Assembly (NCBI GenBank): GCA_051362555.1
Contig: CM120640.1
Span: forward strand, 2,790,001-2,854,000
Direction of reading: 5' to 3'
Length of the DNA: 64,000 nt
DNA from: Lingula anatina
Lineage: Eukaryota > Animalia > Brachiopoda
The notes below the pieces were generated by a model. It was not told the origin of the DNA and made no database searches. It saw only the letters and a program-made list of their open reading frames with translations. The position numbers and the translations under genes were made by a program. The stretch's first letter is position 1, and every line of letters begins with the position of its first letter. Shown piece by piece: positions 9,477 through 51,417 of this stretch.

Positions 9477-11966
9477 ACGTTGTTAGTACTACACCTGTTT
9501 TGTAACTGATATTTTCATAGTTTTATTGGTGTATTTGACATATTTTAGTGATGCAACAGCAAACTGTTTTGTTTTTTAGAGGTTCGAATATCCCTTTCAT
9601 TATTCAGGTGACATGTTTTGTAAAGGAGCATTTGGTTAGGGAAATATACCGGAGAAGTTCATAATTTCAAACATACGATTAAATCAGGTGGTGCAAATTA
9701 TCAGTTAAGCGTCGGGGCAATAAAACTAGCACGGTACGGGTCCCGTGACCGTGGTTTATTAGGCATATCACCCAGCGTATCACTGATAAAACAGCACGAT
9801 ATGTCGCCTTGCTGTCTGTACTATCTAGTCGTGATCTGTGCCCATACAACCTGAAGGTGATGTTTCTATTATTGTGTTATTAGGGCGGATCCAGGGGTGG
9901 TGTTAGATGGGGAGCGGTAGCTGTTTGATCTATTGTTTTTCTCAAGGTGTGGTTTGTGGGCCATAAGACCTGTAAGTGTTCTGAGAAAAGGTAAAGCGAC
10001 ATTTGTTTAAAAAATGTTTACCGCGTCGTCATATTGAAATTCTTAATGCTTTGGACAGAGCGAAAGGTAGATAATGGGAATGAAAAAAATTGCCTTAATT
10101 CACCATATTTACAAGTTATTTGTTGCTATTATCAGCGTAGCGTGTCCGCATGTCCCATCCCGTGCCTGGAGCGAGGGTGTCTTTGATAATAAGGATGGTG
10201 CTGCGACATAAACAACGCTAAAATGAATACAATCTTGTCAAAGTGCGGGTACACTAGAATTGGGTTGGGTAGGAAGCAGAAAGAGCAGTTAATTACCACT
10301 ACCAAAACTCATAAACCACATTTAAAATGTTATTTGTGAAGGAGTTATTTTCCGCTAAATATCAAGTTACGATCGAAGAGGATTGGAAAAAGAAGTATTG
10401 GTTACCGCCTCACATTATTGTGGCATACGCAGAGGCTATTGTTGTTTCAATTGGCAAAATTGCAGAACTTAACGTTTTTCTTAACCTTTCCTACGTGCGT
10501 GTCTTGTATTTTTTCATCATTCCCTAAAAGTCATTTTCCCATTTAAAGTTCATAGTGAATAGCAAATAAATACCTGATTCGTATTCTACGTGAAATTGGT
10601 TGGAGTGGGAAATTTAAACGATGCATACCAGTCTTGACATCAAATGCCAGTCGAAAAGAATGAATGATGTATCGTTTGACATGAGCTGAGCGAGAATAGT
10701 AAAAAAATAACTCGCATTTTATTTCAGTTACTCATAACAGTCAATAACACACCGAGATGTAAGAAATAACCTGTGTGATTCAAAGAACACGTTGTTGTTA
10801 TGAGTGTTATAATTCTGCAAGAGCAGTGAACTTTATACATTGATGTGTCAGTAATTCATATCGCTGATAAAATATTGAAAATACGCTGCCCACATACATA
10901 TTTCTGGCATGTTTCTATTACTGTGTCCACATTTCTTGAATTATTGTGTTAGTGAAACGGGGGCTGTGAAGTACGCAGAGTGTATCGGAGTGCGGGTCAG
11001 CAATGTCGCCAGGACCCCTAAAAATACTTCTAAAACATACACAGAGCGTTTACACAGCTTAAATTTTCGTTTTGCTCTGACATTCACTGAATGTTTATGG
11101 GAGCGTGAAAGTTTGAATGGCAATGTTGAAACTACGGGACCTCATCAATTGCACAACTCCTAACAGAAATAACACTTTCAGATTTTTGGGGTTTAATAGA
11201 AGCAGGGTGTACACTTATGCTTTTCTTTCAACTAATAATACCCCTTTCTTTGGAGCCACAAGTCTCAATATTTTTGTTACAGTTGTTTGAACAATATAAT
11301 GTAAAAGACGACAGTTCCGAATCAAGTTCCGTTTGTTATTTTAAGCTATGAGAAAAGGTGTTGAAACTATACCTTTCAAAGGAGGGTTTTATGTTGCAGT
11401 TCATGTAACTTAAAAGGTTTACGGTCCATTCGGCCTTTCACCTGATAGAGAACTAGGTAAAGTGACGACATACAAGGGGGAAGGTAAAATGAAACCGTTT
11501 TCCATACCCCAAGCACGCACGCTTCGCGGCCGTTACAGTTCTTCAAACAAATCAAAGAATGACGGGAATAAATTACACTTCCACGCCTCACAAGGTGTGC
11601 TGTGATTCACGATGTGCACACACTATGACCTAACTTCTGTATAATACTTTGTTTTTCTTCAACACCCCCTTTGAACGCTGAACAGATCTTTCTCTTGGCA
11701 TTCTCTCAAGGTGGTCAATCAGTGAAAGCTTGAAATACTTTGTCAGCCAATCACTGGTGAGAAATGTGTGTCACATGATCTCCGGGCACCTCGAGTGTTC
11801 TGTTGCCTACACACATTCATAAATCACAGTGGTTGTGCTTGGGTTGAGTTGCCTTTACTCTTGGTGCTATGTGGAACTAGATTGGAACTTGTTCTGACTT
11901 GACTTTGAGTAATGTTGTGTTTTGTTTTACTACAACGACTGCCATTGATTCTTTCAGAGTGATAAT

Positions 11967-13334
11967 ATGGATGGAATCCCACCAGGTGCTCCAGAGATCC
12001 CCGTACTGGTTGGTGGGTGTGAAAAATGGGTGACAGGACTCACCAAGAGAACCACGTGCGATGATGTGATCTACGCTCTCTTACAGACTGAAAGGAATAC
12101 TAACTCCTCCATTGACACCCAATCTTATGTGGTCTTCGAACGATGGAGAGACATGGAAAGGCCCCTTCAGGGTCGGACCAAAATATTGAAGGTTTGGAGA
12201 GCGTGGGGCAATGAGCAAGAGAATGTGACGTTTACTATGAGGAAAATCAACTGTGTTAAAGATTCGAGGGAAGTCATAAAATCTCGAAGGCATCGTAAAC
12301 CGGCCCGTGACAGATCGGAAAAATACGATCGCAGGGACAGCTCTAGTTCTAGAGAGCGAAATAGTGGTAGTCGGTCCACGTCCAAGGAGAAGGGACAGAG
12401 AGTCGACAGACACAAAAACGCAGCTATAACGACTGCATCTCCCTCTCGACTACAGACTCTAGAACAATTGGTACAGAAAGTTATATCCCAGGAAAAAGTG
12501 ATACAGGATCAAATGGCTCGGCTCCGTGACACAGACAAAGAAATCGAGGAACACGAAACCCTTCAGCACATCCACCGGGTGCAAGAGAACGGAGAAAACT
12601 ACGTGCAGGATGCGTACCTCAAAAACATAGCCGAGGACAGCTTGGAGGAGGTGTTCCAGGGAGTCACTCCAGAAAACATGGAGACTTACGTGAAACTCCT
12701 GGAACAATTAGTACAGTTGGACGACATGATTAACCAGGAGCAGACGAGAATTGAGAACCTCTCGTATCAAATATTGGATGAAAGTACCACGGAGGCTCCA
12801 TCTTCAGAGAGCGACGAAAGCCGGTGGGTCCATGACAGGATGAGGCAGGGGAAGGGACAGTCGACTTCCGAGGTCCTACAGGAGGCCAACATCCTCCGTA
12901 CTGCCTTGAAGAGAAGTATTTCTCTGAACTCGTCGCAGAGAACGGAAATTGAACGGGTGAATACTACGGTAAATGACGTTGAAATGCAATTAAGGCTTAA
13001 ACGAGAATACCTCACAAGTTTAATGGAAGAAATAGAGGCGGAGGAAAACCTCGCTGGGGAAAATTTTGACGAGGCGTTTGTATCTCAGGACTATCCACCA
13101 AACGGTGGTGTTTACGCTGGCGAGGTCGGTGACGAATTTGACATCTCCGGCGGCGAGGAAGTCATTAGTGATAATTACTATTCAACGACACACATCCCAT
13201 ATGTCACTGTTCATACTTGGGAAAACGTGTCAAAATACAAAAACGAAGACAATGACTCAAATTCAGACACGGGACTGAGTTCTCTCCACAGCGATGAGGC
13301 TACTCCGACGCCTATCCTAGAAACCCTGGTCTGA
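11967..13334 (+). CDS. RASSF10: N-terminal Ras-association domain protein, RASSF9/RASSF10 (Meru-like) group
   Basis: 455-aa ORF. N-terminal RA domain (IPVLVGGCEKWVTGLTKRTTCDDVIYALL...ERWRDMERPLQGRTKILKVWRAWG), central coiled-coil-like segments, and C-terminal DSNSDTGLSSLHSD...ETLV resembling RASSF9/10 termini. An acceptor (tttcag, ending 11957) 9 nt before the ATG implies a 5'UTR exon upstream. RASSF9 versus RASSF10 cannot be resolved. Confidence 0.92.
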   Translation: MDGIPPGAPEIPVLVGGCEKWVTGLTKRTTCDDVIYALLQTERNTNSSIDTQSYVVFERWRDMERPLQGRTKILKVWRAWGNEQENVTFTMRKINCVKDSREVIKSRRHRKPARDRSEKYDRRDSSSSRERNSGSRSTSKEKGQRVDRHKNAAITTASPSRLQTLEQLVQKVISQEKVIQDQMARLRDTDKEIEEHETLQHIHRVQENGENYVQDAYLKNIAEDSLEEVFQGVTPENMETYVKLLEQLVQLDDMINQEQTRIENLSYQILDESTTEAPSSESDESRWVHDRMRQGKGQSTSEVLQEANILRTALKRSISLNSSQRTEIERVNTTVNDVEMQLRLKREYLTSLMEEIEAEENLAGENFDEAFVSQDYPPNGGVYAGEVGDEFDISGGEEVISDNYYSTTHIPYVTVHTWENVSKYKNEDNDSNSDTGLSSLHSDEATPTPILETLV

Positions 13335-18869: not shown

Positions 18870-19771
18870 CGTCTGAGTGTACCGAATTAGAACATAAAAG
18901 CAAATAGTAAACACGACAATGTAATTGACTTTAGACCATTGAAATGGGATGTGCAGAATTTGGAAGAAAATATCATAAATCAAAAATGAAAGGTGTTTGT
19001 CATACCATATGCCCCTATTGACCTACCATACGATTTGCCCGATACATTTTTATTTACGTTTGGCTGATCAAAAAGGAATTAAGTTTGGCCAATTTTTTAT
19101 ATATTATGCTTTAGTAATCTAATGGGGGGGGGGGGTGAAAGCCGTCCAATATGCACGTCGATATGATGGTGTTAGTTATCTTCTCTCCCGGTCAATCATT
19201 GGTTATCTGTTGACCTAATAAATAACCGATAAGCCTAATCTTAATAATGATACACCAAAACGTAAATCTAAATCTACTGTCCTCATTGTTCATTATAAGT
19301 AAACAACAGCACTGTTGTATGATAAATACACTAAATGGTACTTCTCTGAGTTTAACAGACACAGTTATAAACTGTATTCGAATTCAAGTTGACACAAAGT
19401 TTTAACATTTCAGACTATTGCCTATTTGTGGTTGGAAAGGAATAAACATGCCACGGTAAGTAACACCTTTTAAGGATATTAAAATATCTAAGGGCCACGG
19501 GCCCTATCTCCCGGTCACACGCCACTTTTTTCGGTATAAGTTTTTTCACTTTAAGTGCATAAACCCGAGAAGTGCCCTGTATTAAGCTATATACAGATAT
19601 ATCATATTTTCCATGTATTATTTCATATTTGCAAACGTCCATCAAAATAAGAATTCGACAAAATGATAATGATAAACTGTACTTCAAAATCAAATGTAAT
19701 ATTCTATACGTGATGCTATCCCTGTATTTCACATTATCAGTAATTTACAATTTCTGTGAAATATTTTAAGA

Positions 19772-22000
19772 TCAATTCACATTTTTCCTACCGCTCCCCC
19801 AGGACTGGGCGTGGTAAGTGATGGTGTAGGCATTAGGGTAGTGTTCTTTACAACGCTGAAGCTCGCTGTCGGTCATCTGGTTGAAGTCCTTGCAATGTGT
19901 CTTGGCACCGCCCCAATTAAAGGGGTTGAAGTAACATGGCGGGAAGACAACATAATCATCATGGTACTTTGTATAATTTTTCAGTGCGTCCATTACTACT
20001 TGTGGTCCTGTGACGAACTCCGGTCTCCCGGAAGTGTTGTTTTTAGGTAGATCAGCCAAAAGCTGAAACGGAAAAGTTTCTCCCATGAAATATGTCATTA
20101 TATTAACATCAATGTGACAAATAAAAAAAATCGAAGGCAATTCAATTACTCTATTAATGAATGTAAAACCAGTTGTATTAATCAGCAATGCTCCAACCGA
20201 TTTACGAACAAAAGCTACGTGCGATGGGGGTATAAGTTTAATCCCGAACCCTTTTTAATTTATCTCATTTACACAATAACTTAATATATTCTACTTTGAA
20301 CAGGAACAGGAACTTCACCACAACATATACTCTTGCTAAAAATGACGGGATATTCCCACAGAATATTGGTCCTGCCCTTTCAATCAGTTCAAATTTACAC
20401 ATGTTTTATTCAACTAGTGAAATAGTTTTTTTTTACGTACCTCTACAGAGGGGTGACAAAATTATTGCACAATTTTGCTTACAGTTGAACAACAGCTGTA
20501 TTTGCTAGTTCTTTTCAATTAGTATTTTATTGAAAACTTTTAATGTCAAGTTAATATCTTCACTACAGGTTTACAGAACAGTGATTTTCCCTTACAAAAC
20601 GCATGTTATTATGTCAGTATTTATATTCTGTAGGGTAATCACGTGATCTCAATATGGCAACAATCTCAGGTTTTTAATGTCTCTCAGGTTTTTAAATTAG
20701 GTAAGCGGCTGGTGATTAGGCAGGCCCTTCCACCCTGTTGATTCCATGCTGGTAAAGTCACTCTTGTATACAGCCCTGGTCCTGGGGTAGATGTTAGGCG
20801 TGATCTGCGTAGATGTTATGGGGAAATTTTCTTTTGAATTACATGCTTATTGCATATCATCCTATCATCCCGTCAAAGATTTTGTCAATCTGCTCAGAAT
20901 TGTTATGCAAAGAACACAAGAAATATTATTCTATGAATTTTGTATACTATTGTAACTTTTTACGATAATTGACTAATGCTGCAGTCAACTATAGAAAGGG
21001 TTTTGTGACAAGATAACAGTGGTCTTTTAAAATGATAATTATATCTTAAATTTTCGAAATATTTCGAAATATTCCATCATTTTTTTAGCAGGAGCGTTTG
21101 TTACCATTTCTGCAGAAATACACAAATATTCTAGGAAGAAAAGGTCAGTCAAATGGAACGTGTTAGTAGAGATCTCACCTGTTTCCAGAAGGGGTGTCCA
21201 GCTCGTGACATCATGAAGGAATTCTGTATGTATGGGTAATCTGGATACTTGTGTCCGTCTCGGCGTAGGTCCATTGATTCAAATATCAAATCTTTAACAA
21301 GGAGGTGCTCAAAAGACCTAAAACATTCGTAATCCAGATCCACATATATTCCCCCGTACTGGTAAAGGTAAAAATATCTGACGGCATCTGCTCTTTTGAT
21401 ATTTGCGTCATATGCGTCGTACGTCTTTAAAAACCATGGGTAGTGCGTTTTGATAAACATTCTGTTGTCTTTGTCTGTCCATAATTTATATTCCCAGTCA
21501 GGAAAACAAACTCTCCAAGACTTTTGCCATTTTGCGAAGCGTTTTGGTAAATCTTTGGTTTTCCAGGATTGATGAATAATTTTAGGAATCACTAAATTTC
21601 TAGTCTGCAATTTAATTAAGATTTCCCTATTTATATCTGGAGGACACGAGAGATTTAATCTTTTGATGTAGTAGAATGATTCATTAGTAATTTTCCCATT
21701 GGATTGTTTTTTTGCCGCTGTAGCCAGATATAGTTTGTTCGAAATGTTCCCAATCGGTTGAGCTGTTGTGTTGTGGTTACTCGTGATCCAATGTTGTCGA
21801 CTCTGACTTTTTTGAATGGATGGAGTCGAGACGGATATCGCAGCATTTTCTTCTCCCCTTGATTGATGTGGCGTCACATTTTCACTCTTGTGCGAAGTCC
21901 ATAATTTCAAAATGATTACTGCTAAAAGGAGGAAGATAAGGATTTTTCTCAAATGTCTTTTAAAATAGATTTTTACACAGCCTGATTGTAGTGCAGCCAT
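19772..22000 (-). CDS. Glycosyltransferase family 32 (DXD; SUR1/CSH1/OCH1-like), type II membrane protein, ~370 aa, copy A
   Basis: Exon 1A 22000..21179 (274 codons, donor CAG|GTGAGA, phase 0) joins exon 2 20062..19772 (acceptor TTTCAG|CTT, phase 0). N-terminal TM anchor; motifs IPKIIHQSWK, WEYKLWTD, RADAVRYFYLYQYGGIYVDLD, NSFMMSRAGHPFW in exon 1; VTGP, YFNP, HAQSW in exon 2. Confidence 0.9.
20803..20884. repeat. ~80-bp direct repeat, second copy at 22425..22506, flanking GT exon 1A
   Basis: Both sites share atctgc..atgttatggg..aatttcttttgaattacatgcttatt..tatcatcctatcatcc..aagattttg. Confidence 0.85.
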
Positions 22001-23098
22001 TTTTCAATACTTCTCTGAGCAAATTCAGGATGCCTCAGTGATCAGTCTGATTTAAACATCTTATTTTCATTTACGTGTAATGGATATGGGGTATTCAAAA
22101 AGTTCTTGGAAACCACTTGTTTATTGATAATAGTTTATTGAGACGTATAAAATCGAATTTACCGGTTCTACGTTCAAAGTAATTATATGTACTTCTTTTA
22201 GATATGCACTTTCAAAAAACAGATCTGATCTTTTTATTTCATTTTTTGTCTGCTGATTAACGCGATTGTTAAAGAACACCGTGAACTTTTTCAACACTGT
22301 ACGTTGTCAACAACACTCTAATCCAAGCCCACATAGTCTACCCTCATTGTTAATTGCCTTCAGCTCAAAACACTTCGACTAAAACATCCCTTATCACATA
22401 GTATATGTATTGCCTCAGTGAAAAATCTGCATAAATGTTATGGGACAAATTTCTTTTGAATTACATGCTTATTAAGTATCATCCTATCATCCTGCATAAG
22501 ATTTTGAAGTTGATTAACAATGCGACACAATGTTGTCCAGAGTCACTGGCGGTGACACAGAAGGGGTAATATCAGACACCTGCTTCCGATTTTTAAAATC
22601 TCAATTTTTTTTTATGTCAAACTAATAAGCATCATCTGAGTTAAAAACCCATGTCATATATTGGGGCCTCATTCATATAATTATCAAAAAACGGCCAGGG
22701 AGTTTAAGCAATGCACGTCTTTTATTTCCAGGTATATACATGATAAAGGCACTGATATCATACCATGTTTTCTCGCAAAAACGTTCACAGGCTTTTAATA
22801 CATTATGTTTCATATTTCAATGGTATGCCCTATCCTTCCATGAGGGTTGCCAGCAAAATCTCGCTTAAGTATGTCATCACCGGAGTTATTAATATTGATT
22901 GATATAGCCACCTTTAAAAGACGAATAATAACATTAAACAAGGCAGCAAAGCTGTCAAATGTACAGACAAAAAGCAGAAAATAATAATGCACAAAATAAG
23001 GCTACTTTCAATTCTGATGCAAAAATACATTATGCTTAACTGCAAAGTCAACATCAAATTCTAATTATGCGTAACAAGTAATACCAGTGTAAGTAAAA

Positions 23099-23649
23099 CA
23101 GGCCTACCCAACTACCAGACTCGGCACCTAAGGATCCAGAATTAACCGGTATATCAGACCCCACTTCCCGTTTTCAAGGTGTGTGTCAGATCGCATTTCG
23201 GAGTATCAGCCAGAACACCGATAGGATGAGCCCTGGCATGCTCGGCTGTCACCTTGATTGGATAGTAAACGATTGTCGTAAAATCGCTATATGATTTTAA
23301 AACCGGGTGCATTAATTTGAAAGCCACCTAGATGAACCTTAGACTGCCACATTAATCTAATACAATGCAAAAAAGCCCTATCAAAAGTGGTTAAATCATT
23401 CAAACCGAATGTCATAAAGTCCCTTTATATCCCCATAGAGACAACAAAATAGAGTACTCTAAAGTAAGAGTACAGTTTAAGGTTGTTCAGCCGAGCGTGG
23501 ATGAGCCCGCAGTCGTGCTACAAAATTTGTTCTTAGGTATGATACTCCGAAATGCGATCTGACACACACCTTGAAAACGAGTAGCGTGGTCCGATATACC
23601 GGTTAATTCTGGGCCCTTAGGTGCCGAGTCTGGTAGTTGGGAAGGCCTG
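23099..23649. mobile_element. Non-autonomous DNA transposon (MITE), 551 bp, ~110-bp TIRs, 5-bp TAAAA target-site duplication
   Basis: 23099..23207 (CAGGCCTACCCAACTACCAGACTCGGCACC...) is the near reverse complement of 23540..23649. TAAAA occurs at 23094-23098 and 23650-23654. Confidence 0.88.
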
Positions 23650-24331
23650 TAAAATAAGTAACAAGCATAAGGCTTCAGGCCCATGAGAGTTCAAGTTCAT
23701 ACTTTGAAAACGCCATAATGAGAATAATGAAAATTAAACCACTTGAAACTACATCTCCATAGAATAATTGAAAATAAAAAACAATGTCCACACTGTAATG
23801 TAATAAGTAAATCCCTTTGAAAAAAAGTGAATAATAACGCTGAGAGCAAAGTCAGCGGCTACATCTATGCTCTGCATTGAGTCTGATATCTTACGTAAAG
23901 ATCTCAATATAGTAAAAATTATTTTTTATGAAAATTCACTTCTCACTCGTTGTCAAAACTAAGGAAAGTGGAAGAGTTATTGTAGATGATTACGACAAAC
24001 ATCGCTTAGCTGTTTTTACTCCCACTTTCGTCCAAACCATAGACCTAAATGTGGTTTTATGAAAAATAACTTTTTAGAAGTAGTAGAAATAGGTCATCTT
24101 TTGACTGATAGTAACAAACAGTCCTCACAAACTTTTCACTTCCGTATACGACATGCGCAATGCATGCCCCAGAAGAAAACCACAAAGAGATATGTCCCTT
24201 TTCATTGTGTCTCCTTAAAAACGACGGTGTGACCTTGATCCAGTACGGCAGGCTGAATATGTACCAGTTCTTAGCTGAATGGCTCCCCCTATGGTGGCAT
24301 TATAAGTATGGTGTTTTCTTATATCAAATAG

Positions 24332-26748
24332 ATGCCAAGACTTCGAAGGATGGAGTCGTTGAGTGCATATTTTTCAGATGGCTGCAGGTAAAATTCAAAT
24401 GTAACTTGGACTAATAATACGAATTATTTGCCCAAAACTGAAAGCAAGGCGTAACTGATTTCTCACTGCAGTGGTGTGTGTGAATCACTGCTTTTTTGGT
24501 TTTAGAATGTTCGTCATGAAGTCCCTCATTACCAACAGTGTGTGTCCGGCAACACTGAATGACATGTTTCACAGGCTGTCGCTTACTCAGCTCCATCATT
24601 GGAAAGTTTGTTGTTATTTGGGTAGCTAGAGTCACCGCTCGCACTGTAACACCAGGGTGCATATCATCATCACCTTCACCATCAATGCCATCATACATTT
24701 ATATCACCTATATTGCCATGCTGTACATTAATGATCGTTGCAATATGATTTGTATCTTCAGAGCGCAACCTCTGTGGTTTTTTATGATGGTCGCAGTCTT
24801 ACCGGCCACCATAGGGAAATCATTCGACGGGTTGTTGCGGCGGACCACTGACGGGCGATACGAGGCCTACATGAAGCCACCGTACAAGTCTAACCATGCC
24901 TCGTTCATAGAAAGACTGTCCAGGGAAGACATGGTCATAGCTTGGTTCAGCGGTTCTAAGGAAGGCGAAAGTAACGTGAGTACAGAGAAACCTTAATACA
25001 ATATAAGATATTAAAGATAAGAGGAAAGTAAGATCACGCAAAATGCAACATTTTTTTATGTTTTTAGGTATCTCTTTGTATTGTATACGTCTTCACGCAC
25101 GCTAGTAAAAACTGTTAGGTGTTGCCAAGTGCTGTCACTGTCCCCTGTGAGGTTGATTCAATGGATTTGGAATTAGAACATGGACATTTATTGAAATTAC
25201 TTATTTTTTCTAGGTTGCCATAGTTTTTGCCCGTCTCCCTAACGGCACATTACAGTGGATGAATCCGCGCACCGTCTCACAAAGACCTGGTTATTCTAAC
25301 CAAAATCCCGTCCTGTTCGCAGACAACAACACGTTGTTCCTCTTCCACACTCAGCAGAAGGCATCATTCACAAGCACGTGCAACAGTGACGTAGGCAGCG
25401 AAGGTGAGATAGGCATGACTTATTTAATATTACATATTTAGTCCGTGAGTTGTATGTTTATGTTATAAACATATAACAATTAATTTACAAAACAATCAAT
25501 ATCGATATCAAAACCATTATTCGTGAAAAAAATAACTTCCAGTGGCAAAACCATGCTCCTTTTACCGTTTTCCAAAAAATGAATTGAGTTTATTGACATG
25601 AAGACAACCTCCAATCTTCTAAATACGTGTCAAATAAATAGATGTCAAAAATCAAATGATTTTATTCTCTTTCATTAGATTCCGCTCAGGTGTGGGCTCT
25701 AGTTTCTACAGACGGGAAAGGAGAAAAATTTACTAAACCAAAGCTAGTTCTTTCCAAAGCTGGGTCATTCGACCGCAATCGAATTATTCGATCCCTGGAG
25801 AACGAGTGGCTATTCCCAACGTACTTTGCAGGGGGCTCTTCTAAAGACCAACACTCGATTTTGATGGAGAACGCCAAACACGATCCTTATTCGTCATGGG
25901 TTGGGCATGCTTTTCCAAAATCTGACTACTTAGTGCAACCAAGCGTAGTCCGTCCCGTTCCAGGCAAGTTATTCGTGCCGTTCGTCTATTCTTTTTTTTC
26001 TTTAAAAAATTAGAATGGATTATCAGCACGTTTTGTGGAGCAGTTATTACTAATAGACGTTTGCATAAATGATAAACCCACCCAACCGCCGTCTTCTTTG
26101 ATCCACGAAATAAAGTATTCATTTCACTTGCAATAAGACATTTTATTAGGGCTCCACTTTATGCTATAAGGGGACGTTTGTTTCACAAGTATGCCATGTC
26201 TAGAGAAAGCATTTTATTCACCACTGTTCATTTATAAATTCAAGAATCAGTTAAGGCACTAATACTTTCAGTGCTTATTCGAAATGTCTTCAAATAAAAG
26301 TCCGATATTAAAATAAGAAAGACTAATTTTTTCAGGCAAGCCGAACCTTGTCGTTTTCTTCAGAGATCGGCGTGCAGGGAACATCTACAGGGCAACAAGC
26401 CCAGACGACGGTAAAACGTGGACCACACCCACCAAAACCACACTTCCTAATAACAATAGTGGGATAGAAGCAAACGTTTTGAAAAGCGGCCGAATCGCTC
26501 TGGTGTATAACCCAACCCACCACGCACGTGACCCGTTGGTAATCTCCCTGTCGGAGGACCAAGGTAAAAGTTGGAAGTATACGCGCACACTGGAGACCAG
26601 CAGCAGCGGGAAGAACGTTGTAGAATACAGTTACCCTTCTCTACTACAGGACACAATGGGCAGAATTCACGTGTCCTATACTTATAACAGAGAGACAGTT
26701 AAACATGTCATTATACCCAATGAGCAGTGGATAATGAAAACATATTAA
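24332..26748 (+). CDS. BNR/Asp-box repeat sialidase-fold (BNR_2-type) protein, ~385 aa, predicted secreted or membrane-anchored
   Basis: Exons 24332..24387, 24762..24975, 25214..25403, 25679..25963, 26336..26748 join in frame (phases 2,0,1,1; last intron GC-AG). Motifs HASFIE, WFSGSKEG, NPVLF, QPSVV, FFRDR, SPDDGKTW, LPNNNSG, SEDQGKSW, YSYPS, IHVSYTY. Hydrophobic N-terminal segment LWFFMMVAVLPATIG. AATAAA at 26790. The first exon and start codon (24332 or 24350) are the least certain parts. Confidence 0.87.
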
Positions 26749-26963
26749 GAAATTGATATATCAGACCTAAGTTGGATGTTTTATAAGCCAATAAAAAGAG
26801 GTTCTTTTCAATAGATTTTTATTCAAATTACTTATGCTAACGAATAGATAAAAGACTCTTTCACTAGATTCCACAAGTTAAATTTTGAGGCAATTTTGTA
26901 TAACATTTTTATTATTATATAACCAGAACAATATATTGTATATATTAAAATGGATCTAGAACC

Positions 26964-26966
<3 letters not shown>

Positions 26967-27006
<40 letters not shown>
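26967..27006. repeat. (AC)n microsatellite, ~20 copies
   Basis: Read directly. Confidence 0.95.
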
Positions 27007-27009
<3 letters not shown>

Positions 27010-27911
27010 GACTTAATAAAATAAATATTTTATAATTTAACAATGTGTTAATATTGTTAAAAAAGCAAACATGTAAATGGGTTTTCATATACCAGCAAAA
27101 TATATATCATGTATAAATTTTTCTAATAAAAATAAAGGAGCATTATCAAAAAGGCACATATGATAAATAGCCAAGATTTCGCAGGGTGAAGGGACTAACT
27201 TCATTAAGATTAAGCAGAAATAATATATATAACAATATATATATCGGTCATTTTGGCAATTATGATACAATGTTACATAATGGTTAACAACAAAATCAAC
27301 ACTAAATTTTAATAATGCACAATAGGTAACAGAATATTACTTCAGGCCCACGAGAGCTGGAAAATGATTGTACACAGACTGAAGTTTAAGTAGGACCTTT
27401 GTAGGATCTAATAAAAAATGGTTTCTGTTTTTATGAGGGACACCCTATACGATGCCACTGTGTGAACCTACAGACGCTTCCTTGAATGAGTCCAGAACGA
27501 GCAGCAACGACCAAACATTTGTTTGCGACCAAAACACCACATTCACAAAAATTACCAAGCTTAACCACGGGGTGTAAGACGAAAAAATTGCTACCCTTCA
27601 AATGTTTCAAATGAAGAGAATTGACTTGCGACCGCACACAGCAGTGACTTGTCCATAAGTATACACGTAGCATGCCAGCCTGCTCAGATTTGCTAAACAG
27701 GGAACACAGCTTAAACCAACCATTACTCTAGGAATTCTGTCCACTTCCTTACCTTCATAATTGCTTACTGGTGAATGTTATAGCCAGCTTAATGAAAGGT
27801 TTTGTGACAAGTATTATGCCTGTAATTGCCAAAATATTCCATCATTTATAGCAAGAGTGTATATGAGGATTTCCGCAGAAACATACCAAGGAGAAGAGCA
27901 AGGTTACTTAC

Positions 27912-28736
27912 CAGTATCCAGAAGGGGTGTCCAGCTCGTGAAATCATGAAGGAATTCTGTATGTATGGGTAATCTGGATACTTGTGTCCGTCCCGGTGTA
28001 GATCCATTGATTCAAATATCAAATCTTTAACAAGGAGATGCTCAAAAGGTCTGATACATTCGTAATCCAGATCCACATATATTCCCCCGTAATGGTAAAG
28101 GTAAAAATATCTGACGACATCTGCTCTTTTGATATTTGCGTTATATGTGTCGTACGTCTTTAAAAACCATGGGTAGTGTGTTTTGATAAACATTCTGTTG
28201 TCTTTGTCTGTCCATAATTTATATTCCCAGTCAGGAAAACAAACTCTCCAAGACTTTTGCCATTTTGCGAAGCGTTTTGGTAAATCTTTGGTTTTCCAGG
28301 ATTGATGAATAATTTTAGGAATCACTAAATTTCTAGTCTGCAATTTAATTAACGTTTCCTTATTTATATCTGGAGGACACGAGAGATTTAGTCTTTTGAT
28401 GTAGTAGAATGATTCATTAGTAATTTGCCCACTGGAATGTCTTTCTGCAGCTGTAGTCAGATATTGTTTGTTAGAAATGTTCCCAATCGGAAGTACTGTT
28501 GTGTTGTGGTTACTCATCATATGTTGCCGACTCTGACTTTTTTTAATGGATGAAGTCGAGACGGATATCGCAGCATTTTCTCCTTTTTCTCCCCTTGTTT
28601 GATGTGGCACTACGTTTTCACTTTGGCGCGAAATCCATACTTTCAGAATGCATATTATTAAAATGATGAACGTAAGGATATACTTGAACTTTCTTCTAAA
28701 AGAGATTTTCACACAGGCTGATTGTTGTGCGGCCAT
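27912..28736 (-). CDS. GT32 glycosyltransferase exon 1, copy B (intact, no private exon 2 found)
   Basis: 275 open codons paralogous to exon 1A, ending in a strong phase-0 donor CTG|GTAAGT at the homologous position. No second copy of exon 2 was seen. It is either an alternative first exon splicing to 20062 or a truncated duplicate reading through to the stop at 27846. Confidence 0.8.
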
Positions 28737-29540
28737 TTATCATTTCTCCTCTGAACAATTTCAAGATGTCTCAGTCAGTCGTTCATAAAATATTCCGTCA
28801 AACATTAATTCAAGCATCATGGGGGTAAAAGTATTAGCATATAATTAAATTGAATTACAAAGCGCTAACATAATGTACATAGTAACAATTCGCGCGCTTA
28901 ATCAATAACCTTCATGTATACAGGAACCCACATAGCACAAGCACACTGCTGTTGGGGCAGCTTTGGCATCAGTGGTTCAAACGTCATTTTATCCTTGGGC
29001 CCACAGTGGATCACCCAGACCCCATCCCTGCTAGGTACTAGAACGGGTGATATGAGCTTGTAATTTCTTTCGTTTCCGACCCGCATATGCAGATGCTGGA
29101 TCGAATACTTACTTTTTGCAGTAATTTTTTCGGGAAGGTACACATTCATAATGTATATTTGGTATTTTTATGTGTTGATGTTGAACTTAACATAAGTTAT
29201 TTGGTGCGTAACTTCAGAAACCAAGTCGCCCGCCGGAAGTAGTTCCAGTTGAACGCTATGTCAGCAGCTTTGACGTGCACGACATATAATTAACAGACTT
29301 AACGTCACAAGCCGTTGTTGTAACTGGCTGTCTTATGATCTTCAACAGAAACACAAAAATTAATAGGCCACAAGTTGTGCAAATTGTTGTTGTCCTCAAA
29401 ACACAACCACATCCCCAAATCGCTGTTCATTCTCAAGGCGTGGTTTGCGCACCTGAAAAATCACCCCGTTTTGTGGTTGCAAACTGATTTTTTAAAAGAT
29501 AGTTTAATTAGATAAAACAGTTTCTGGTGAAAATCTGAAA

Positions 29541-29775
29541 GAGGCCAACCCTCGATTTTGATGTAGAACGCCAAACACGATCCTTACTCGGCATTGGTTT
29601 GACGTGCTTTTCCAAAATCTGACTACACAGTCCAACCAAGTGTAGTCCGTCTAGCGACAGGCAACCGTGGTGCTCGTCTTTCCGCGTTTTTTTGATCAAA
29701 AAATTTTACTATAAGGACGATTGCACCGCCCACTGCTAACTCGAAGTCTTTGCAACCGCAACGCAATATTTGAGT
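29541..29775 (+). pseudogene. Decayed duplicate fragment of the BNR sialidase-fold gene (end of exon 4 plus start of following intron)
   Basis: ctcgattttgatgTAGaacgccaaacacgatcctta...gcttttccaaaatctgactac...caaccaagtgtagtccgt aligns to 25846-25963 with a GAG>TAG stop. Similarity continues into the intron (cgtggtgctcgtcttttc vs cgtgccgttcgtctattc). Confidence 0.85.
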
Positions 29776-30791
29776 GGCCGTAGAATAACAGCCTTGATGA
29801 GTCATTAAAATTAAAATCTAAAGAAAAGGCTTTATCCAACTTTTTTTTTATTTTCTCGACGGTTTTGGATGGTATATACCTTGGCAAATAATTGGTAAAA
29901 TGATATTCCAAGGAAATTTAATATATATTTAATACATACAGATTTCATGCACTTTGTGTGCTTTTAACGATAGATTTATACTTTTCTATTCTTACTTTAT
30001 ATAGTCAATATTCATAATATAATATACTCTAAACAAACATGGCAAATAGCTCTTTCATATACATCCACACACAACCAATATTACACGTATATACATACTG
30101 CTTGTGTAACTGTTAAAGCACTCAAACAGATGATTGCACAATTAATTCAAATTTTGTTGACTTCACTGAGATAATATTTCATAAGTTACACTAAAAATGT
30201 TTTAATATTGTAAAAAGAAAGAAAAGCATAAATAGGCAGTTTTCCATCTAACAGCAAAATATGCAGAATTTGCATAAATTTCCCTCTTACCAAACATAAA
30301 TGAGCATTATCCAAAATGCATACGATACGCAGGTGAGATTAAGTGCATTTTGGCAGAGTCAAGGGTTGAGGAGTTTAATAAGATTCCTTGAAGTGCAGAA
30401 AGGATTCACTGGGGGTTTATACACTGGTGTAATGGTAAGGTGAAACGTTGGCAGTTTAGATGTCTTTTCAGCTGGGGTGATATTGGTATTTCCCTACATA
30501 TAGTTATATGCAGTGCATATTCACACTGGTCTTGGGATTTGATGACTGCTGACTGCTGGTTCAAATAAATGGTTAATGGTTACCGAGTTATCAAACACTG
30601 TTACATAGTTCTGCTCAAAATATAGTTACAGAAGATGGTGTTAATAAAAAGAAGCTGCTCAGTCTGGTTTAGAATACAACCACTTTTTTCAAAATCAATA
30701 AATTGGTTGAGAAGACTGTCACTTTAATTCAGTCAGAGGATCCAACCCCAAAAATCACTGTGTGACTGCAAACTCTCTGGTCTCATCACAG

Positions 30792-33700
30792 TCACTGCTG
30801 AGGAGGGTGCATCAACTGGTGGACCTCCTGAAAAGACTGTGCGTCCAGTGCGTACGCTGAGCCAAGCGGCCCAGGCCCGTACATGTTGTGAGCTGGGATC
30901 ATGTGGGTCGAATGCACTGCTTGCGTGTGGGTTATATGTGGGTGCTCAGGGTGGGTTCTCTGCTGTTTGTCACCCACAGTGGGTGTGGGTTGCTGTTGCA
31001 TGCCCTGTAAAGTGGGATAGTGGTATATGGGGTGGGAGGAGTAGATGGCCGAGGGGGTGCCGGGGACTTGTACAGGGGTGGGATCTTGTTCATGGGGGTC
31101 TTGTGGGAGATGTTGTGACTGATGCTGCACCTGTTGTTGTTGCTGTTGTTGTTGATGTAGTTGGTGTTGTTTTAGTGCAGTATCGGCCAGCTGGGAGATA
31201 CTGTCCTGTACTTGTTGGAGACTTTCCTCAGCAAGTTGTTTGGAAGCCTGCTCAATATTATTCATTCCACCATCAATAACTTGTTTTGTGTGGACTCGCA
31301 TGTGCTTGTGCAGGGTTGACCCATGAGCAAAGGTCTTGTTACAGACTTTACATTTGACAGGCTTCTCACCTGTGTGGGTACGTGCATGTTCCATCATGGT
31401 TTTCTTTTGTGTAAATCCACGCCCACAGTAAGAACAGACGAAAGGCTTCTGACCATAATGAATTCGCAGATGCATGTTAAGATGACTCGTGGCCTTAAAT
31501 CCTTTGCCACATACATGACAGACCTTGTTACGCTCAGCAGTATGACTCTGAAGATGGCACTCGTAAGAACGCTTGTGGGCAAAAGCTTTAAAGCATTCTG
31601 AACACTCATAAGGCATTTGGTCTCCATGAGTTTTCTGGTGGTCACGCAGATAGTATTTATTGGCAAACTTTTTTCCACACTGCTCACAGAAATATTCCTC
31701 AATTTTTCCACCATGTACTTTTTCCTTGTGAACATTAACATACTGATGACTTGAAAAGTTCTTACCACACAAATCACAGGGGATTTGTCTTGGACCTTCT
31801 TTGTGGCGACGCTCATGGATAACCAGTGCTGTTTTACTACGGTACTGCTTGCCACAAAGCTCACACATGTATTTGACATTATAGTGCCGACTTTCCATGT
31901 GGAATTTTAAGTCTCTAGGGATTGCAAACTTATGATCACACTCGGTGCATTGTAAGCTTTTTGCAAAATGCTTCCTCATCAGATGTGTCCTCATGTGACG
32001 GCGGTACTCACTCTTGAAGCTACAGTGGATACAGACGATCATTCCCTCAACAATCTTGTAATGCGCCCTCCAGTCGCTGGCTGATTTGGCAACAATTACA
32101 CCATCATTTGAATCATTTGATTCTGTTTTATCCAAAGTCTCATCCAGTTCTCCTGTATCATCAAGTGCAGGTTTTTCTGCGTGCGACACCCCCTTTGAGT
32201 CGGCCTCACACTCTGCCTCATGCTCTTCATAGGCATTCTGGTCAACAAATTTAGCTTGGCAATAAGCACATGTGTAGTATTTCCAGCATCTCCGAGTTCT
32301 CTGACCACATGAGTGCCAGCGCAAATATTCCTTCTTCACGTACGCCTTCCCACACACTTTGCACGGATACCGCTTGACTTTGGGCTTACATTTGTGAATT
32401 TTAAGTGAATGCGGGCTGACATAGACTTTTCTACACTTATTACACTTAAAAGGTTGTTGCTGCATGCAGTGTCTTTGCAGGTGCTTTTTAAGTTCTCCTT
32501 TATCCATAGTAGACTTGTCACATAGAGGACAGAGCCACTTCTTTGGTAAATGATTTTCTATCATGTGGTTGCACCAGGTGGTTATTATTTTAGTTTCAAA
32601 CTCACAAAACTTGCACTTTTGGTTGACTTTAGTTTGTTTTTGTGTTGGTGGTGGGATGAAATTATCTCCTTCATCTTCTCCTGGTTCAGCAATGCCCTCA
32701 TCATTATCATCATCATCATCATCATCTAAAGCTTCATCCATTTCTTCTTCATTGTAAATGAAAGAAGTTTCTTTGGCTTTCTGTTTTCTTTGTGGTTCAA
32801 CAAAATCATCTTCTTCATAAACTTCTGGCTTTGGTTCAGCATATGATTTGTTTTTCTTGGCCCTTCGAAATCTAGGGACCCATCCAGGAACCCCTTCACA
32901 ATTTCTTGACTGCATTCCCTCTTCGGGGACTTCTTCTTCAGCTTTATTTTCATTCTTTTCTTCAACATTTCCATTTGATGAGCCAACCTTTTCATTTCTA
33001 TCTGAATCTTCAGCAATCAGAGCCTGTTTACTGAAGGCCAAGTCCTGTATCTTTCTAAGGGCCTGACTCTGCCTGTACTTGGTATCTAAGACATCATGGA
33101 ATTCTTTGATATTGTTCCATGTGCCATGGAGGAGACAGGCGCCTACGTCATCTGGAACTGTTTGTACTGAGGTCCCACTCTGGAAGACACAAAAATGTTC
33201 ATGTAAGTACACAGATACACATTGTAGCAAGAGATAAATAAATGTTCAAAATATAACTAGATATGCTTAACTGGAGCAAAGGATAAATCACATTTTAATA
33301 TACTCATGTACAGAGTAGTACGATGCACATTATACACAGCAGTGATCAGAGGAGAGGACTGCACTTGAAGATTACTTTATCTTTTCTGGCTTACAATGAC
33401 TCACAGTTCATAGCTTAATTTTGCAATGAGAATTCATTAGTTTTCCTTGTGACACTAAAATATGTTCTATTAGTGCAATAGTATAAACAGGAGAAGAGTT
33501 TGCAGCTAATACCACCGTACATACATTTACATGGGATACCTTTTTCATGTCTTCCAGTGGCTGTACATGTTATAGTGCCAGCGGTATAATGAGCAAAATT
33601 AGGCTTAAAACGGAGGTTTAGATGGCACCTCCCTAGTTACTGCCTTTATAAGTAAGTATGTCGCATGTTCGTGAATGAATACAGGTGTTATTCTTTGCTT

Positions 33701-41243: not shown

Positions 41244-44200
41244 CTAGAGGATCAGAGAGGCGATACCGCCTCCGAATATTGTACCACCAGCTGGAGCAAG
41301 CGCATTCGTATAGACCCCCACATACACAAAATAAGGGACACAGCCACCAGTCTTATGCTTGACAAGCTATAAAAATGCAATCAACAAGAATTTTCAAAAT
41401 ACGCAAAAAATATATATAACTTAAAATGGTACAATCAAAGTTAAGTTCATCGTAAGGTAGGTCAAAGGTCAATTTCAAGGTCACAGTAAATTGCCAGTAT
41501 ATGACTTCCTATTCAACTTCAATAGTAACTATGGACCTATCTCTGCCAGGTTTGGAGTTAAAAGAGAAAGAAATTAGCAGAGTTCAGTTCATGATTATAA
41601 GTAGGTCAAAGGTCAATTTCAAGGTCACACTTAGATTGCCAGTATATGACTTCCTATTCAACTTCAATAGTAACTATGGACCTATCTTGCTAGTTTTGGA
41701 AATAAAAGGGAACCAAAATTTGCAAAGTTCAATTCATGATAAAAAGTAGGTCAAAGGTCAATTTCAAGGTCACATTTAGATTGCCAGTATATGACTTCCT
41801 ATTCAAGTTCAAAAGTAACTATGGACCTATCTCTGCCAGTTTTGGAGATAAAAGGGAAGCAAAATTTGCAAAGTTCAATTCATGATAAAAAGTAGGTCAA
41901 AGGTCAATTTCAAGGTCACATTTAGATTGCCAGTATATGACTTCCTATTCAACTTCAACAGTAACTATGGACCTATCTCTGCCAGGTTTGGAGTTAAAAG
42001 AGAAAGAAATTAGCAGAGTTCAGTTCATGGTGAAAAGTAGGTCAAAGGTCAATTTTAAGGTCACATTTAGATTGCCAGTATATGACTTCCTATTCAACTT
42101 CAATAGTAACTATGAACCTATCTCTGCCAGTTTTGGAGATAAAAGGGAAGCAAAATTTGCAAAGTTCAGTTCATGGTGAAAAGTAGGTCAAAGGTCAATT
42201 TCAAGGTCACAGTAAGATTGCCAGTACATGACTTCCTATTCAACTTCAATAGTAACTATGGACTTATCTCTGCCAGTTTTGGAGATATAAGGGACTAAAT
42301 GTTATAATTTTGGAGTTACCATAATGTGCCATAAAGAAAAGGTCATTTTGGTAAAAATTCTTGAAATGGGAGGTGCTCTGAAGTTCCAGATGTTCAAATT
42401 TGATGAAATAATGTCATTTTCGACCACAAGTTGCCTGCTTTGCCAAGCCTTATGTTTTATTTTTCCGGAGTTCAAAATTTATTATCCATTACCGTACTGC
42501 ACATTTTGCTTTAACCACCAAAATGTACTTTTTGATACAGCGTAACTTTGGAGATAAAAGGGAAGCAAAATTTGCAAAGTTCAGTTCATGATGAAAAGAA
42601 GGTCAAAGGTCAATTTCAAGGTCACAGTAAGATTGCCAGTATATGACTTCCTATTCAAGTTCAATAGTAACTATGGATTTATTTCTGCCAGTTTTGGGGA
42701 TAAAAGGGAACCAAAATTTGCAAAGTTCAATTCATGATAAAAAGTAGGTCAAAGGTCAATTTCAAGGTCACATTTAGATTGCCAGTATATGACTTCCTAT
42801 TCAACTTCAACAGTAACTATGGACCTATCTCTGCCAAGTTTGGAGTTAAAAGAGAAAGAAATTAGCAGAGTTCAGTTCATGGTGAAAAGAAGGTCAAAGG
42901 TCAATTTTAAGGTCACATTTAGATTGCCAGTATATGACTTCCTATTCAACTTCAATAGTAACTATGGACCTATCTCTGCTAGTTTTGGAGATAAAAGGGA
43001 AGCAAAATTTCCAAAGTTCAGTTCATGGTGAAAAGTAGGTCAAAGGTCAATTTCAAGGTCACATTTAGATTGCCAGTATATGACTTCCTATTCAACTTCA
43101 ATAGTAACTATGGACCTATCTCTGCCAGTTTTGGAGATAAAAGGGAAGCAAAATTTGCAAAGTTCAATTTATGGTGAAAAGTAGGTCAAAGGTCAATTTC
43201 AAGGTCACAGTAAGATTGCCAGTATATGACTTCCTATTCAACTTCAATAGTAACTATGGACCTATCTCTGCCAGTTTTGGAGATATAAGGGACTAAATGT
43301 TATAATTTCGGAGTTACCTTAATGTGCCATAAATTTCCTACAGAAAAAATTAATTAAAATAAAGAAAAGGTCATTTTGGTAAAAATTCTTGAAATGGGAG
43401 GTGCTCTGAAGTTCCAGAAGTTCAAATTTGATGAAATAATGTCATTTTTGACCACAAGTTGTCTGCTTTGCCAAGCCTTATGTTTTATTTTTCCAGAGTT
43501 CAAAATTTATTATCCATTACCGTACTGCACATTTTGCTTTCACCACCAATATGTACTTTTTGATACAGCGTAACTCGAAAACCGTATGGAATACAAAAAA
43601 ACGGAGACCACCTCCAGTGTTGGGCTTTACATGCTCTACAAAATGCAAAAAAGAATGGGTCTCTAGCATTAACGGTTCCTGAATTAGAGACAGTTTTCAG
43701 TTTCGGTATCTTATGGCCGCTACTCCCGTGAAAATGCACCGATTGACCCCAAATTTACGGATATGAAAGATGACCTGAAGGGTAACATCTTCCAATAATA
43801 TTATTGGTTAAGTCTGTGTGGTGTCTGAATAACAGCGCAAATAAATTTTTTTTCGTAAAAAAATTCATTTTTTTGAAAATTTTTGCCCGTTTGACCTTGA
43901 AATAAAGGTCAAAGGTCAAATCCAAGGGCATATTTGAAATCTACACATATGACTTTTGGAAAGCCGTCTGTAGAAATTTTTCCCATAATTCCTTCCGTAG
44001 GGTAGATAATTAGCATTTAATTTTGCCATTTTTGGACAAGGGTGCATTGCAATGAGTGCCACACCTAGACCCCAATACCGACAAGGCCCAAATTTTACGT
44101 GGAACGAGTTGAGATTATAGGTGACCTAAATCCAAGAGATGGGTATGGGGGCCCTTACCGTCTAGGAGGAGAAGCGGTAACGGTAACATGGCGGCGGAGC

Positions 44201-50806: not shown

Positions 50807-51036
50807 GGCTCATTCACAATGAAACTATCATTCTACATAGATAGATTCAACTCTGTGGGGACTTGCTGAATGCAATCACACTAAAAGATAAAACTATCAT
50901 CAAGTAGGATACAGCTGATGATTATGAGAATACATTGGAAACAAGAGGATGCATGTTAACCTGATTGCATTCAGTGAGAGTCCTAACAGAGCTGGATTGA
51001 TGTTAGTAGAATGACAGTTTCATTGGGAATGTGCCC
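50807..51036. mobile_element. MITE with ~72-bp imperfect TIRs, TAA/TTA flanks (PIF/Harbinger-like)
   Basis: GGCTCATTCACAATGAAACTATCATTCTAC...CTGAATGCAATCA (50807-50878) is inverted relative to TGATTGCATTCAG...GTAGAATGACAGTTTCATTGGGAATGTGCCC (50962-51036). Confidence 0.75.
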
Positions 51037-51417
51037 TTAGGTTCAAGAGTGATGGTCAGCCTATATTGACATTGGGAATGGGTCCTTAGGTTCAAGAGTG
51101 ATGGTCAGCCTATATTGACATTGGGAATGGGCCCTTAAGGTTCAAGAGTGATGGTCAGCCTATATTGACATTGGGAATGGGCCCTTAGGTTCAAGAGTGA
51201 TGGGCTGCCTATATTGACATTGGGAATGGGCCCTTAGGTTCAAGAGTGATAGTCAGCCTATATTGACATTGGGAATGGGCCCTTAGGTTCAAGAGTAATG
51301 GTCAGCCTATATTGACATTGGGAATGGGCCCTTAGGTTCAAGAGTGATGGTCAGCCTATATTGACATTGGGAATGGGCCCTTAGGTTCAAGAGTGATGGT
51401 CAGCCTATATTGACATT
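51021..51417. repeat. 49-bp minisatellite, 8 copies
   Basis: Unit CATTGGGAATGGGCCCTTAGGTTCAAGAGTGATGGTCAGCCTATATTGA, head-to-tail with no spacers and few substitutions. Confidence 0.97.

What the first reader, a model, noticed from the sequence alone, without database searches (positions are those of the whole stretch)
19772..28736. Two intact glycosyltransferase first exons but one last exon: candidate UGT1A-like variable/constant locus
Seen: exon 1A (22000-21179) and exon 1B (28736-27912) are both open, each with a start codon, TM anchor and DXD core, and both end in phase-0 donors at the homologous codon. The only C-terminal exon found is 20062-19772, outside the duplicated segment, which starts near 20885. 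Indels in the 1B stem preserve frame, while the co-duplicated BNR gene next to it has decayed. Known: UGT1A and clustered protocadherin loci splice alternative first exons to shared constant exons. Inference: 1B splices across ~7.85 kb to the shared exon, giving two GT32 isoforms with different tail/TM/stem and slightly different catalytic N-halves.
Basis: partly seen in the sequence, partly recalled or inferred. Interest (0 to 1): 0.8.

Follow-up and report, generated by a model that had tools for sequence, protein, structure and literature searches.

The report
Two front exons, one docking site
A brachiopod sugar-transferring enzyme gene has two intact copies of its large front exon but one back exon, and each copy is followed by a short sequence predicted to base-pair with one site before the back exon, so the gene likely makes two enzyme versions, although no RNA read joining the distant copy to the back exon was found.

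Summary
The anatomy is confirmed. Exons 1A (22000-21179) and 1B (28736-27912) are open, 83% identical in protein, and end in phase-0 donors at the same codon. The window holds one last exon (20062-19772), outside the duplicated block. The species is Lingula anatina (database match of a neighbouring gene).

New here: 42-49 nt after the 1B donor lies a 30-nt arm complementary (26/30, -42.6 kcal/mol) to a site about 260 nt before the last exon. The homologous arm after 1A pairs with the same site (-34.0). This matches the selector/docking layout of mite sDscam-beta. Human GCNT2 is the closest enzyme precedent.

The key step is unproven. In 8 shallowly read RNA runs no 27912->20062 join was seen. 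1B had one sure and one probable sense fragment, and none in six runs. The 1A join was not listed either, so power was low. Probable gene conversion weakens the selection argument, and the pairing could be a neutral leftover.

Verdict: a likely (0.5-0.6) two-cassette variable/constant locus; main rival a silent partial duplicate (0.3). New member of a known kind, interest 0.5.

The parts
21179..22000 (-). Exon 1A coding part: cytoplasmic tail, TM anchor, stem, N-terminal part of the GT32 catalytic domain with DLD (274 aa)
   Evidence: a few RNA reads in X8, X9 and X7
27912..28736 (-). Exon 1B coding part, paralogue of 1A (275 aa, 83% aa, 90% nt identical)
   Evidence: one 99+% read pair in X3 over the 1B-specific half, one probable pair in X1
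19772..20062 (-). Single last coding exon E2 (96 aa; TGP motif, C-terminal HxxxW)
   Evidence: depth 1.4-2.0 in X8/X9 falling to 0.01-0.02 in the next bin
27826..27869 (-). Predicted selector arm after the 1B donor (core 27862-27833), starting 42-49 nt into the intron
21057..21108 (-). Predicted selector arm after the 1A donor, homologous to the 1B arm, starting 70-76 nt into the intron
20317..20361 (-). Predicted docking site (core 20354-20325), about 255-262 nt before the E2 acceptor, outside the duplicated block
27906..27914 (-). 1B donor CTG|GTAAGT, best match (8 of 9) to the donor consensus among 639 GT sites on the minus strand of 19000-30000
   Evidence: consensus recalled
20883..27178 (.). 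Copy 1 of the tandem duplication (part of the GT intron, 1A, BNR gene)
27673..30340 (.). Copy 2 of the duplication (GT intron part, 1B, BNR relic), about 3.6 kb shorter than copy 1
24333..26748 (+). Intact BNR/sialidase-like gene (PF13088), antisense inside the would-be 1B-E2 intron; start approximate
   Evidence: (joints 24384-24759, 25401-25677)
29542..29705 (+). Relic of a BNR exon with two stop codons
29113..29334 (-). Candidate 1B promoter or non-coding first exon: CCGGAAGT motif at 29233, donor AAA|GTAAGT at 29112, one sense read pair at about 29228-29334
   Evidence: inferred, no join seen; motif names recalled

Best explanation
A tandem duplication copied the large front coding exon of a GT32-type glycosyltransferase gene and the first part of its intron but not the last exon, and both copies likely splice to that one last exon from separate starts, the distant copy likely helped by a predicted RNA pairing with a docking site in front of the last exon. 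Shown: two open paralogous exons, one last exon outside the duplicate, complementary arms after each donor matching one downstream site. Inferred steps: (1) the duplication took one arm of an existing intron stem and so made two arms competing for one site; (2) a transcript starting upstream of 1B pairs its arm (-42.6 kcal/mol, stronger than 1A's -34.0) with the docking site, looping out about 7.5 kb (the antisense BNR gene and exon 1A) and leaving about 300 nt between the 1B donor and the acceptor; (3) a transcript starting at 1A uses its own arm and the 1.1-kb intron; (4) the products are 370- and 371-aa type II membrane, probably Golgi, retaining glycosyltransferases that differ mostly in tail, TM and stem, so they would differ more in trafficking or expression site than in chemistry. 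1B would be the minor, restricted form.
For: E2 is a required half: 192 of 230 fetched proteins align across the join, best the Lingula paralogue XP_013420829; 5 of 34 columns conserved in at least 80% of 94 homologue segments lie in E2, including an invariant Gly. No 1B change hits a conserved column where 1A has the consensus residue; profile scores 294.3 (1B+E2), 293.8 (1A+E2), 220.8 (1B read-through). Simulated neutral survival of the frame: 0.0003-0.07 for the whole exon, 0.007-0.29 for the first 106 codons, by assumed indel rate; indels per substitution in the flanks were about 0.15 or more, which favours the low end; the co-duplicated BNR relic has two stops in 46 codons. The 1B donor is the best of 639 GT sites. 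The 1B arm matches 26/30 against 19-22 in 40 shuffles, is the best partner of the docking site among 904 windows (mean -19.2, sd 4.9) and the best DNA match to it in the whole window, 1A's arm second. Its distance from the donor, 42-49 nt, equals that reported for sDscam-beta selectors, 43 +/- 10 nt (PMC9258826 passages). One X3 read pair is 99+% like 1B where 1A is only 75-77% alike, on the sense strand if the library is stranded.
Against: No 27912->20062 join in 8 runs. 1B exon bins had zero depth in all 4 runs, while 1A and E2 had a few reads in X8 and X9; X4 had no reads and X7 none in the 1B-specific half. dN/dS is 0.72 overall (Fisher p 0.18 on rounded counts) and 0.44 in the catalytic part (p about 0.05). 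A 173-nt identical run and lower dS inside the exon (0.05-0.10) than in the flanks (0.18-0.32) suggest gene conversion, which can keep a silent copy open. The arm is not significantly better kept than the rest of the intron flank (26/30 vs 124/174, p 0.11), and neutral decay of a perfect ancestral stem reaches the observed energy in 19-74% of runs (80-99% if only the arm decays). 1A's arm ranks fourth, behind two chance sites at -34.8 and -34.6. 1B's upstream DNA has no detectable homology to 1A's, so its promoter is unproven. No database protein holding E2 was found (weak by the tool's own note).
Confidence: 0.5

Rival explanations
1. 1B is a silent or decaying partial duplicate. Only 1A-E2 is a working gene; 1B stays open through partial gene conversion from 1A and luck, its arm is a neutral leftover, and the few reads are background transcription or DNA.
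For: Zero 1B-specific reads in 6 of 8 runs; signs of conversion; pairing strength compatible with neutral decay; upstream homology lost; the co-duplicated BNR copy died.
Against: The unconverted first 106 codons (dS about 0.2) are open with two in-frame indels (simulated chance 0.007-0.29); TM segment, ATG, conserved residues and a strong donor that differs from 1A's are all kept; the 3 fragments at or before 1B all lie in sense orientation.
Confidence: 0.3
2. 1B does join E2, but 1A and 1B are internal cassettes fed by one upstream non-coding exon and chosen one at a time by the competing pairing, like 14-3-3zeta or Mhc.
For: A donor at 29112 and a read pair at about 29228-29334; AG sites just before both ATGs, with homology starting about 47 nt upstream; a downstream docking site is the known layout of such clusters (PMC6071210 passages).
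Against: No reads upstream of 1B in X7, which had glycosyltransferase reads, and only 0.06 depth there in X8, 0 in X9; by my bin arithmetic reads reach about 28765 and 22027, past the nearest candidate AG in each copy; joining 1B to any of three AGs before 1A gives a stop within 22 codons.
Confidence: 0.1
3. 1B is transcribed but not spliced to E2, and reads through to the stop at 27846, giving a 296-aa truncated, probably inactive protein or a non-coding RNA.
For: The frame runs 21 codons past the donor and ends in a mildly hydrophobic stretch.
Against: It lacks profile positions 138-223 of 224, including TGP and the C-terminal W; no depth in the intron bins just after the donor in any of 8 runs; the exact protein is not in the collection; the first AATAAA is about 1 kb downstream.
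Confidence: 0.07
4. The duplication is an assembly artefact, two haplotypes placed in tandem.
For: The species is heterozygous (1.6%, PMC4595640 passage); no DNA reads were laid.
Against: The copies differ by 10-37% with kilobase length differences and a dead BNR relic; the window has no N; RNA reads match each copy's own divergent half, in different runs.
Confidence: 0.03

Closest known systems
Vertebrate GCNT2 (IGnT) cluster (PMC1885805, passages read)
   Same: Glycosyltransferase with similar tandem variable exons that carry the N-terminal TM segment and splice to shared constant exons; two variable exons in chicken, frog and opossum.
   Different: Another GT family (GT14, recalled); separate promoters and joins are established there; the paper calls the layout vertebrate-specific and finds little gene conversion; the passages read mention no RNA pairing.
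Mite sDscam-beta 5' variable cassettes (PMC9258826, passages read)
   Same: Alternative front cassettes, a docking site in the intron before the constant region, complementary selectors 43 +/- 10 nt after each variable donor.
   Different: Many cassettes of an adhesion receptor, pairing tested by mutation, also trans-splicing. Here two cassettes of an enzyme, pairing only predicted, and an antisense gene lies between them.
One-arm duplication model of Ivanov and Pervouchine (PMC6071210, abstract and passages read)
   Same: Duplication of an exon with one arm of an intron stem makes two selectors for one docking site; here the duplicate's edge (about 20883) lies between arm and docking site.
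   Different: Proposed for internal mutually exclusive exons in fly and human, not for front exons holding most of an enzyme.
UGT1A and UGT2A clusters (PMC1885805)
   Same: Variable front exon with shared back exons in a sugar transferase; UGT2A has two variable exons.
   Different: There the variable half binds the acceptor and is diverse; here the catalytic parts differ at only 12 of 168 residues and most change is in tail, TM and stem.
GT32 / PF04488 enzymes: Lingula XP_013420829 'CSH1-like', yeast Och1 (PDB 9n3s)
   Same: PF04488; 53% identity to the paralogue over the catalytic domain; Och1 is the best PDB hit by sequence (E 4e-9) and for the paralogue's model (E 7e-10).
   Different: Donor and acceptor of the Lingula enzyme are unknown; the database name is automatic. 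The spliced product itself was not folded.

Membership tests
Variable-first-exon / constant-exon cluster (GCNT2, UGT1A type) | Tandem paralogous coding exons, each with start codon and a donor in the same phase | tested here: met
Variable-first-exon / constant-exon cluster (GCNT2, UGT1A type) | One shared set of downstream exons, no private copy | tested here: met
   within the 64-kb window only, genome not held
Variable-first-exon / constant-exon cluster (GCNT2, UGT1A type) | Each variable exon is spliced to the constant exon in mRNA | tested here: inconclusive
   no join listed for either copy; 1A join only inferred from a partial X7 read ending at about 27917 on 1B and the depth edge at 20062/20063
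Variable-first-exon / constant-exon cluster (GCNT2, UGT1A type) | Each variable exon has its own promoter | tested here: inconclusive
   motifs and one read pair upstream of 1B; no start-site data
Docking-site/selector competing pairing (sDscam-beta, 14-3-3zeta type) | One docking site complementary to a selector after each variable exon | tested here: met
   1A's arm is weaker and not beyond chance in the long scan
Docking-site/selector competing pairing (sDscam-beta, 14-3-3zeta type) | Conservation or compensatory change across species | not testable with these tools
   no orthologous DNA available; the three-way comparison inside the window cannot separate selection from neutral decay
Docking-site/selector competing pairing (sDscam-beta, 14-3-3zeta type) | Disrupting and restoring the pairing changes exon choice | not testable with these tools
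   needs a minigene
GT32 / PF04488 glycosyltransferase | PF04488 domain above cut-off with DXD motif | tested here: met
   75 and 77 bits against cut-off 23; D221 and D223 conserved
GT32 / PF04488 glycosyltransferase | Retaining sugar transfer activity | not testable with these tools
   needs an assay

The most novel reading that the evidence does not exclude
This is a young variable/constant enzyme locus caught near its birth: one duplication created both a second front exon and a second selector, and competing RNA pairing of the sDscam-beta type routes the distant exon over 7.8 kb, an antisense gene and the rival exon. That would extend docking-site control of front cassettes from arthropod adhesion receptors to a lophotrochozoan metabolic enzyme, and give a two-cassette test case for how GCNT2/UGT1A-like clusters start.
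Probability: 0.3. Interest if true: 0.7.

Novelty: new member of a known kind. Interest (0 to 1): 0.5.

Why it matters
Variable-first-exon glycosyltransferase clusters were described as vertebrate-specific (PMC1885805). If 1B joins E2, a brachiopod built the same design independently in another enzyme family. With only two cassettes and a visible duplication edge between selector and docking site, it is a small, directly testable example of the one-arm duplication model for how such loci arise. If 1B is silent, it is an ordinary partial duplicate.

Tried and rejected
Whole-genome search for a second last exon: no genome held. Indexed RNA holders: no RNA holder listed. One search hid 4 joint rows and 234 loose-end rows; a 1B join cannot be among them because 1B had zero depth there, a 1A join could be. 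Database gene models: neither the 1A search, the E2 search among longer proteins nor exact look-ups of the two read-through ORFs found this locus's proteins; one search also missed the Lingula paralogue, so these blanks are weak. Relic of E2 between the copies: none above shuffles. Homology of 1B's upstream DNA to 1A's or to the BNR promoter region: none in 6 segments. Recent horizontal transfer: first hits were microbial, but a Lingula paralogue and Macrostomum relatives exist and several relatives break off at the same point; not pursued, no tree built. Metagenome contigs gave 4 distant loci, not examined further. ESM Atlas only confirmed PF04488. My first BNR exon model was wrong and was corrected. 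The profile step failed and was rerun. Earlier-finding look-ups near this place, by sequence, and for docking site plus variable first exon found nothing. Literature searches (listings only) showed no paper on this locus or on variable first exons in Lingula; the library lacks most subscription papers. No supplements were opened; gene models in the Lingula genome papers' supplements may bear on the join.
Full report
Observation. On the minus strand 1A (22000-21179, 274 aa) and 1B (28736-27912, 275 aa) are open from ATG, 83% identical in protein and 90% in DNA, and end at the same codon before GT. Both hit PF04488 above cut-off and have an N-terminal hydrophobic segment. Their two indels are 6 and 3 nt. 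The last exon E2 (20062-19772) has one copy in the window by protein and DNA search. Homology blocks define a tandem duplication, 20883-27178 against 27673-30340, whose edge is 820 nt short of E2. The BNR gene in copy 1 is intact and spliced; copy 2 holds only a 164-nt relic with two stops. No genome was held, so nothing outside the window was searched.

Organism and family. A neighbouring RASSF protein is 100% identical to a Lingula anatina record. The best full-length relative of the glycosyltransferase is a Lingula paralogue, XP_013420829. 192 of 230 fetched proteins align across the 1A/E2 join, and 5 of 34 highly conserved columns lie in E2, so neither front exon makes a complete enzyme alone. 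The paralogue's model (pLDDT 82.6) matches Och1 best; Och1 is a type II membrane GT-A enzyme modelled as retaining (PMC12312940 passages). Of 106 fetched proteins with the HPFW-like motif, 8 stop soon after it and 7 of these continue V-S/C/R, as a frame running into a GT donor would; two pairs are cluster mates, V alone is common there (42 of 94 full-length proteins), and I did not see their DNA, so a conserved intron position is inferred.

Is 1B under selection? For: no 1B change hits a conserved column where 1A has the consensus residue, and 1B+E2 scores like 1A+E2 on a profile of 94 homologue segments (294.3 vs 293.8; read-through form 220.8). Neutral simulations leave the frame open with chance 0.0003-0.07 (whole exon) or 0.007-0.29 (first 106 codons), by assumed indel rate. 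The 1B donor is the best consensus match of 639 GT sites, though a strong ancestral donor could survive by chance. Against: dN/dS is 0.72 overall (p 0.18) and 0.44 in the catalytic part (p about 0.05, rounded counts); a 173-nt identical run (0 of 20000 uniform placements) and low dS inside the exon point to gene conversion, which can keep a silent copy open.

An inverted-repeat scan found arms at 27833-27862 and 20325-20354 (26 of 30), and a second pair joining 21082-21102 to the same site. The two upstream arms are homologous. Predicted duplexes are -42.6 kcal/mol for 1B and -34.0 for 1A; 0 of 1000 shuffles reached either. Among 904 windows the 1B arm is the best partner, while the 1A arm is fourth, behind two chance sites. 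The 26/30 match exceeds all 40 shuffled targets (19-22). The docking site has no better DNA match elsewhere in the window than these two arms; its genome-wide copy number is unknown, so a transposon origin is open. The arms start 42-49 and 70-76 nt after their donors and the site ends about 260 nt before the acceptor. In mite sDscam-beta, selectors lie 43 +/- 10 nt after variable donors and pair with a docking site before the constant region (PMC9258826 passages). Duplication of one arm of an intron stem is a proposed origin of such competition (PMC6071210 abstract and passages), and the duplicate's edge here falls between arm and site. The complementarity is real, but function is not shown: the arm is not significantly better kept than its flank (p 0.11), and neutral decay of a perfect stem often retains this energy (19-74%).

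RNA. Nine raw-read runs of the species were listed; 8 were laid, 6-30% of each. Read positions below are my arithmetic from mean-depth bins. On 27020-29750: X3 had a 99+% pair at about 28569-28765, where 1A is only 75-77% alike, and a pair at about 29228-29334. X1 had a pair at about 27934-28131 at 95-99%, where the window's 1A would score 93-94% and be dropped, so it is probably 1B. X7 had 9 reads, none in the 1B-specific half, one stopping at about 27917 as a spliced 1A read would. X4 had none. On 19736-29535: X2, X8, X9 and X5 had zero depth over 1B; X8 and X9 had about 400-670 bases each on 1A and on E2, with depth dropping at the acceptor. No glycosyltransferase join was listed in either call (threshold 3 reads). 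So 1B appears barely transcribed, 1A weakly, and the test lacked power. One or two fragments cannot exclude background.

Mechanism. I commit to two front exons with separate starts sharing E2, the far one likely aided by the pairing (0.5). A version with a shared non-coding first exon gets 0.1, so a 1B-E2 mRNA in some form is about 0.6. A silent duplicate gets 0.3, read-through 0.07 and artefact 0.03. On the artefact: Lingula is heterozygous (1.6%, PMC4595640 passage) and a HiFi chromosome-level assembly exists (PMC13121700 passages), but the window's source was not established; the divergence pattern argues against haplotypes. Catalytic parts differ at 12 of 168 residues, while tail and TM have dN 0.30, so the forms would likely differ in location or expression more than chemistry; this is inference.

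Known kinds and novelty. GCNT2 is the closest enzyme case: variable exons with a TM segment, own promoters, shared constant exons, described as vertebrate-specific (PMC1885805 passages). Membership is met for layout, inconclusive for joins and promoters. Searches (listings only) showed nothing on this locus. Unreviewed notes from this scan claim other variable-exon loci in the same genome; I did not test them and do not count them as support. Verdict: new member of a known kind, unproven at its key step, interest 0.5.

Noticed in passing
window 25964-26335 (+): The BNR gene appears to have a GC-AG intron (CAG|GCAAGT); using it gives an open frame through the last four exons. No read join for it was among the rows shown.
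   Followed up: partly
window 22936-23710: Repeat elements with very high RNA depth from other copies, including 111-nt inverted arms at 23098-23208 and 23540-23650; reads skipping the inner element suggest it is an insertion into another repeat. Present in copy 1 only.
   Followed up: no
window 20803-20884 and 22425-22506: An 82-nt repeat (85% identical), one copy abutting the left edge of the duplicated block.
   Followed up: no
window 41436-43575 and 51021-51417: Tandem repeat arrays with units of about 146 and 98 nt.
   Followed up: no
window 11949-13334 (+) and 30792-33245 (-): RASSF8-10-like gene and a long C2H2 zinc-finger ORF flank the locus.
   Followed up: partly
window 24138 and 29233: CGGAAGT-type motifs (ETS-like, name recalled) at the BNR 5' end and upstream of 1B; the first could mark a two-way promoter for BNR and 1A.
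   Followed up: no
window 28188, 28211, 28314: X7 reads carry three differences in the stretch where 1A and 1B are identical (two silent, one T to S), so the RNA donors are polymorphic relative to the window.
   Followed up: partly
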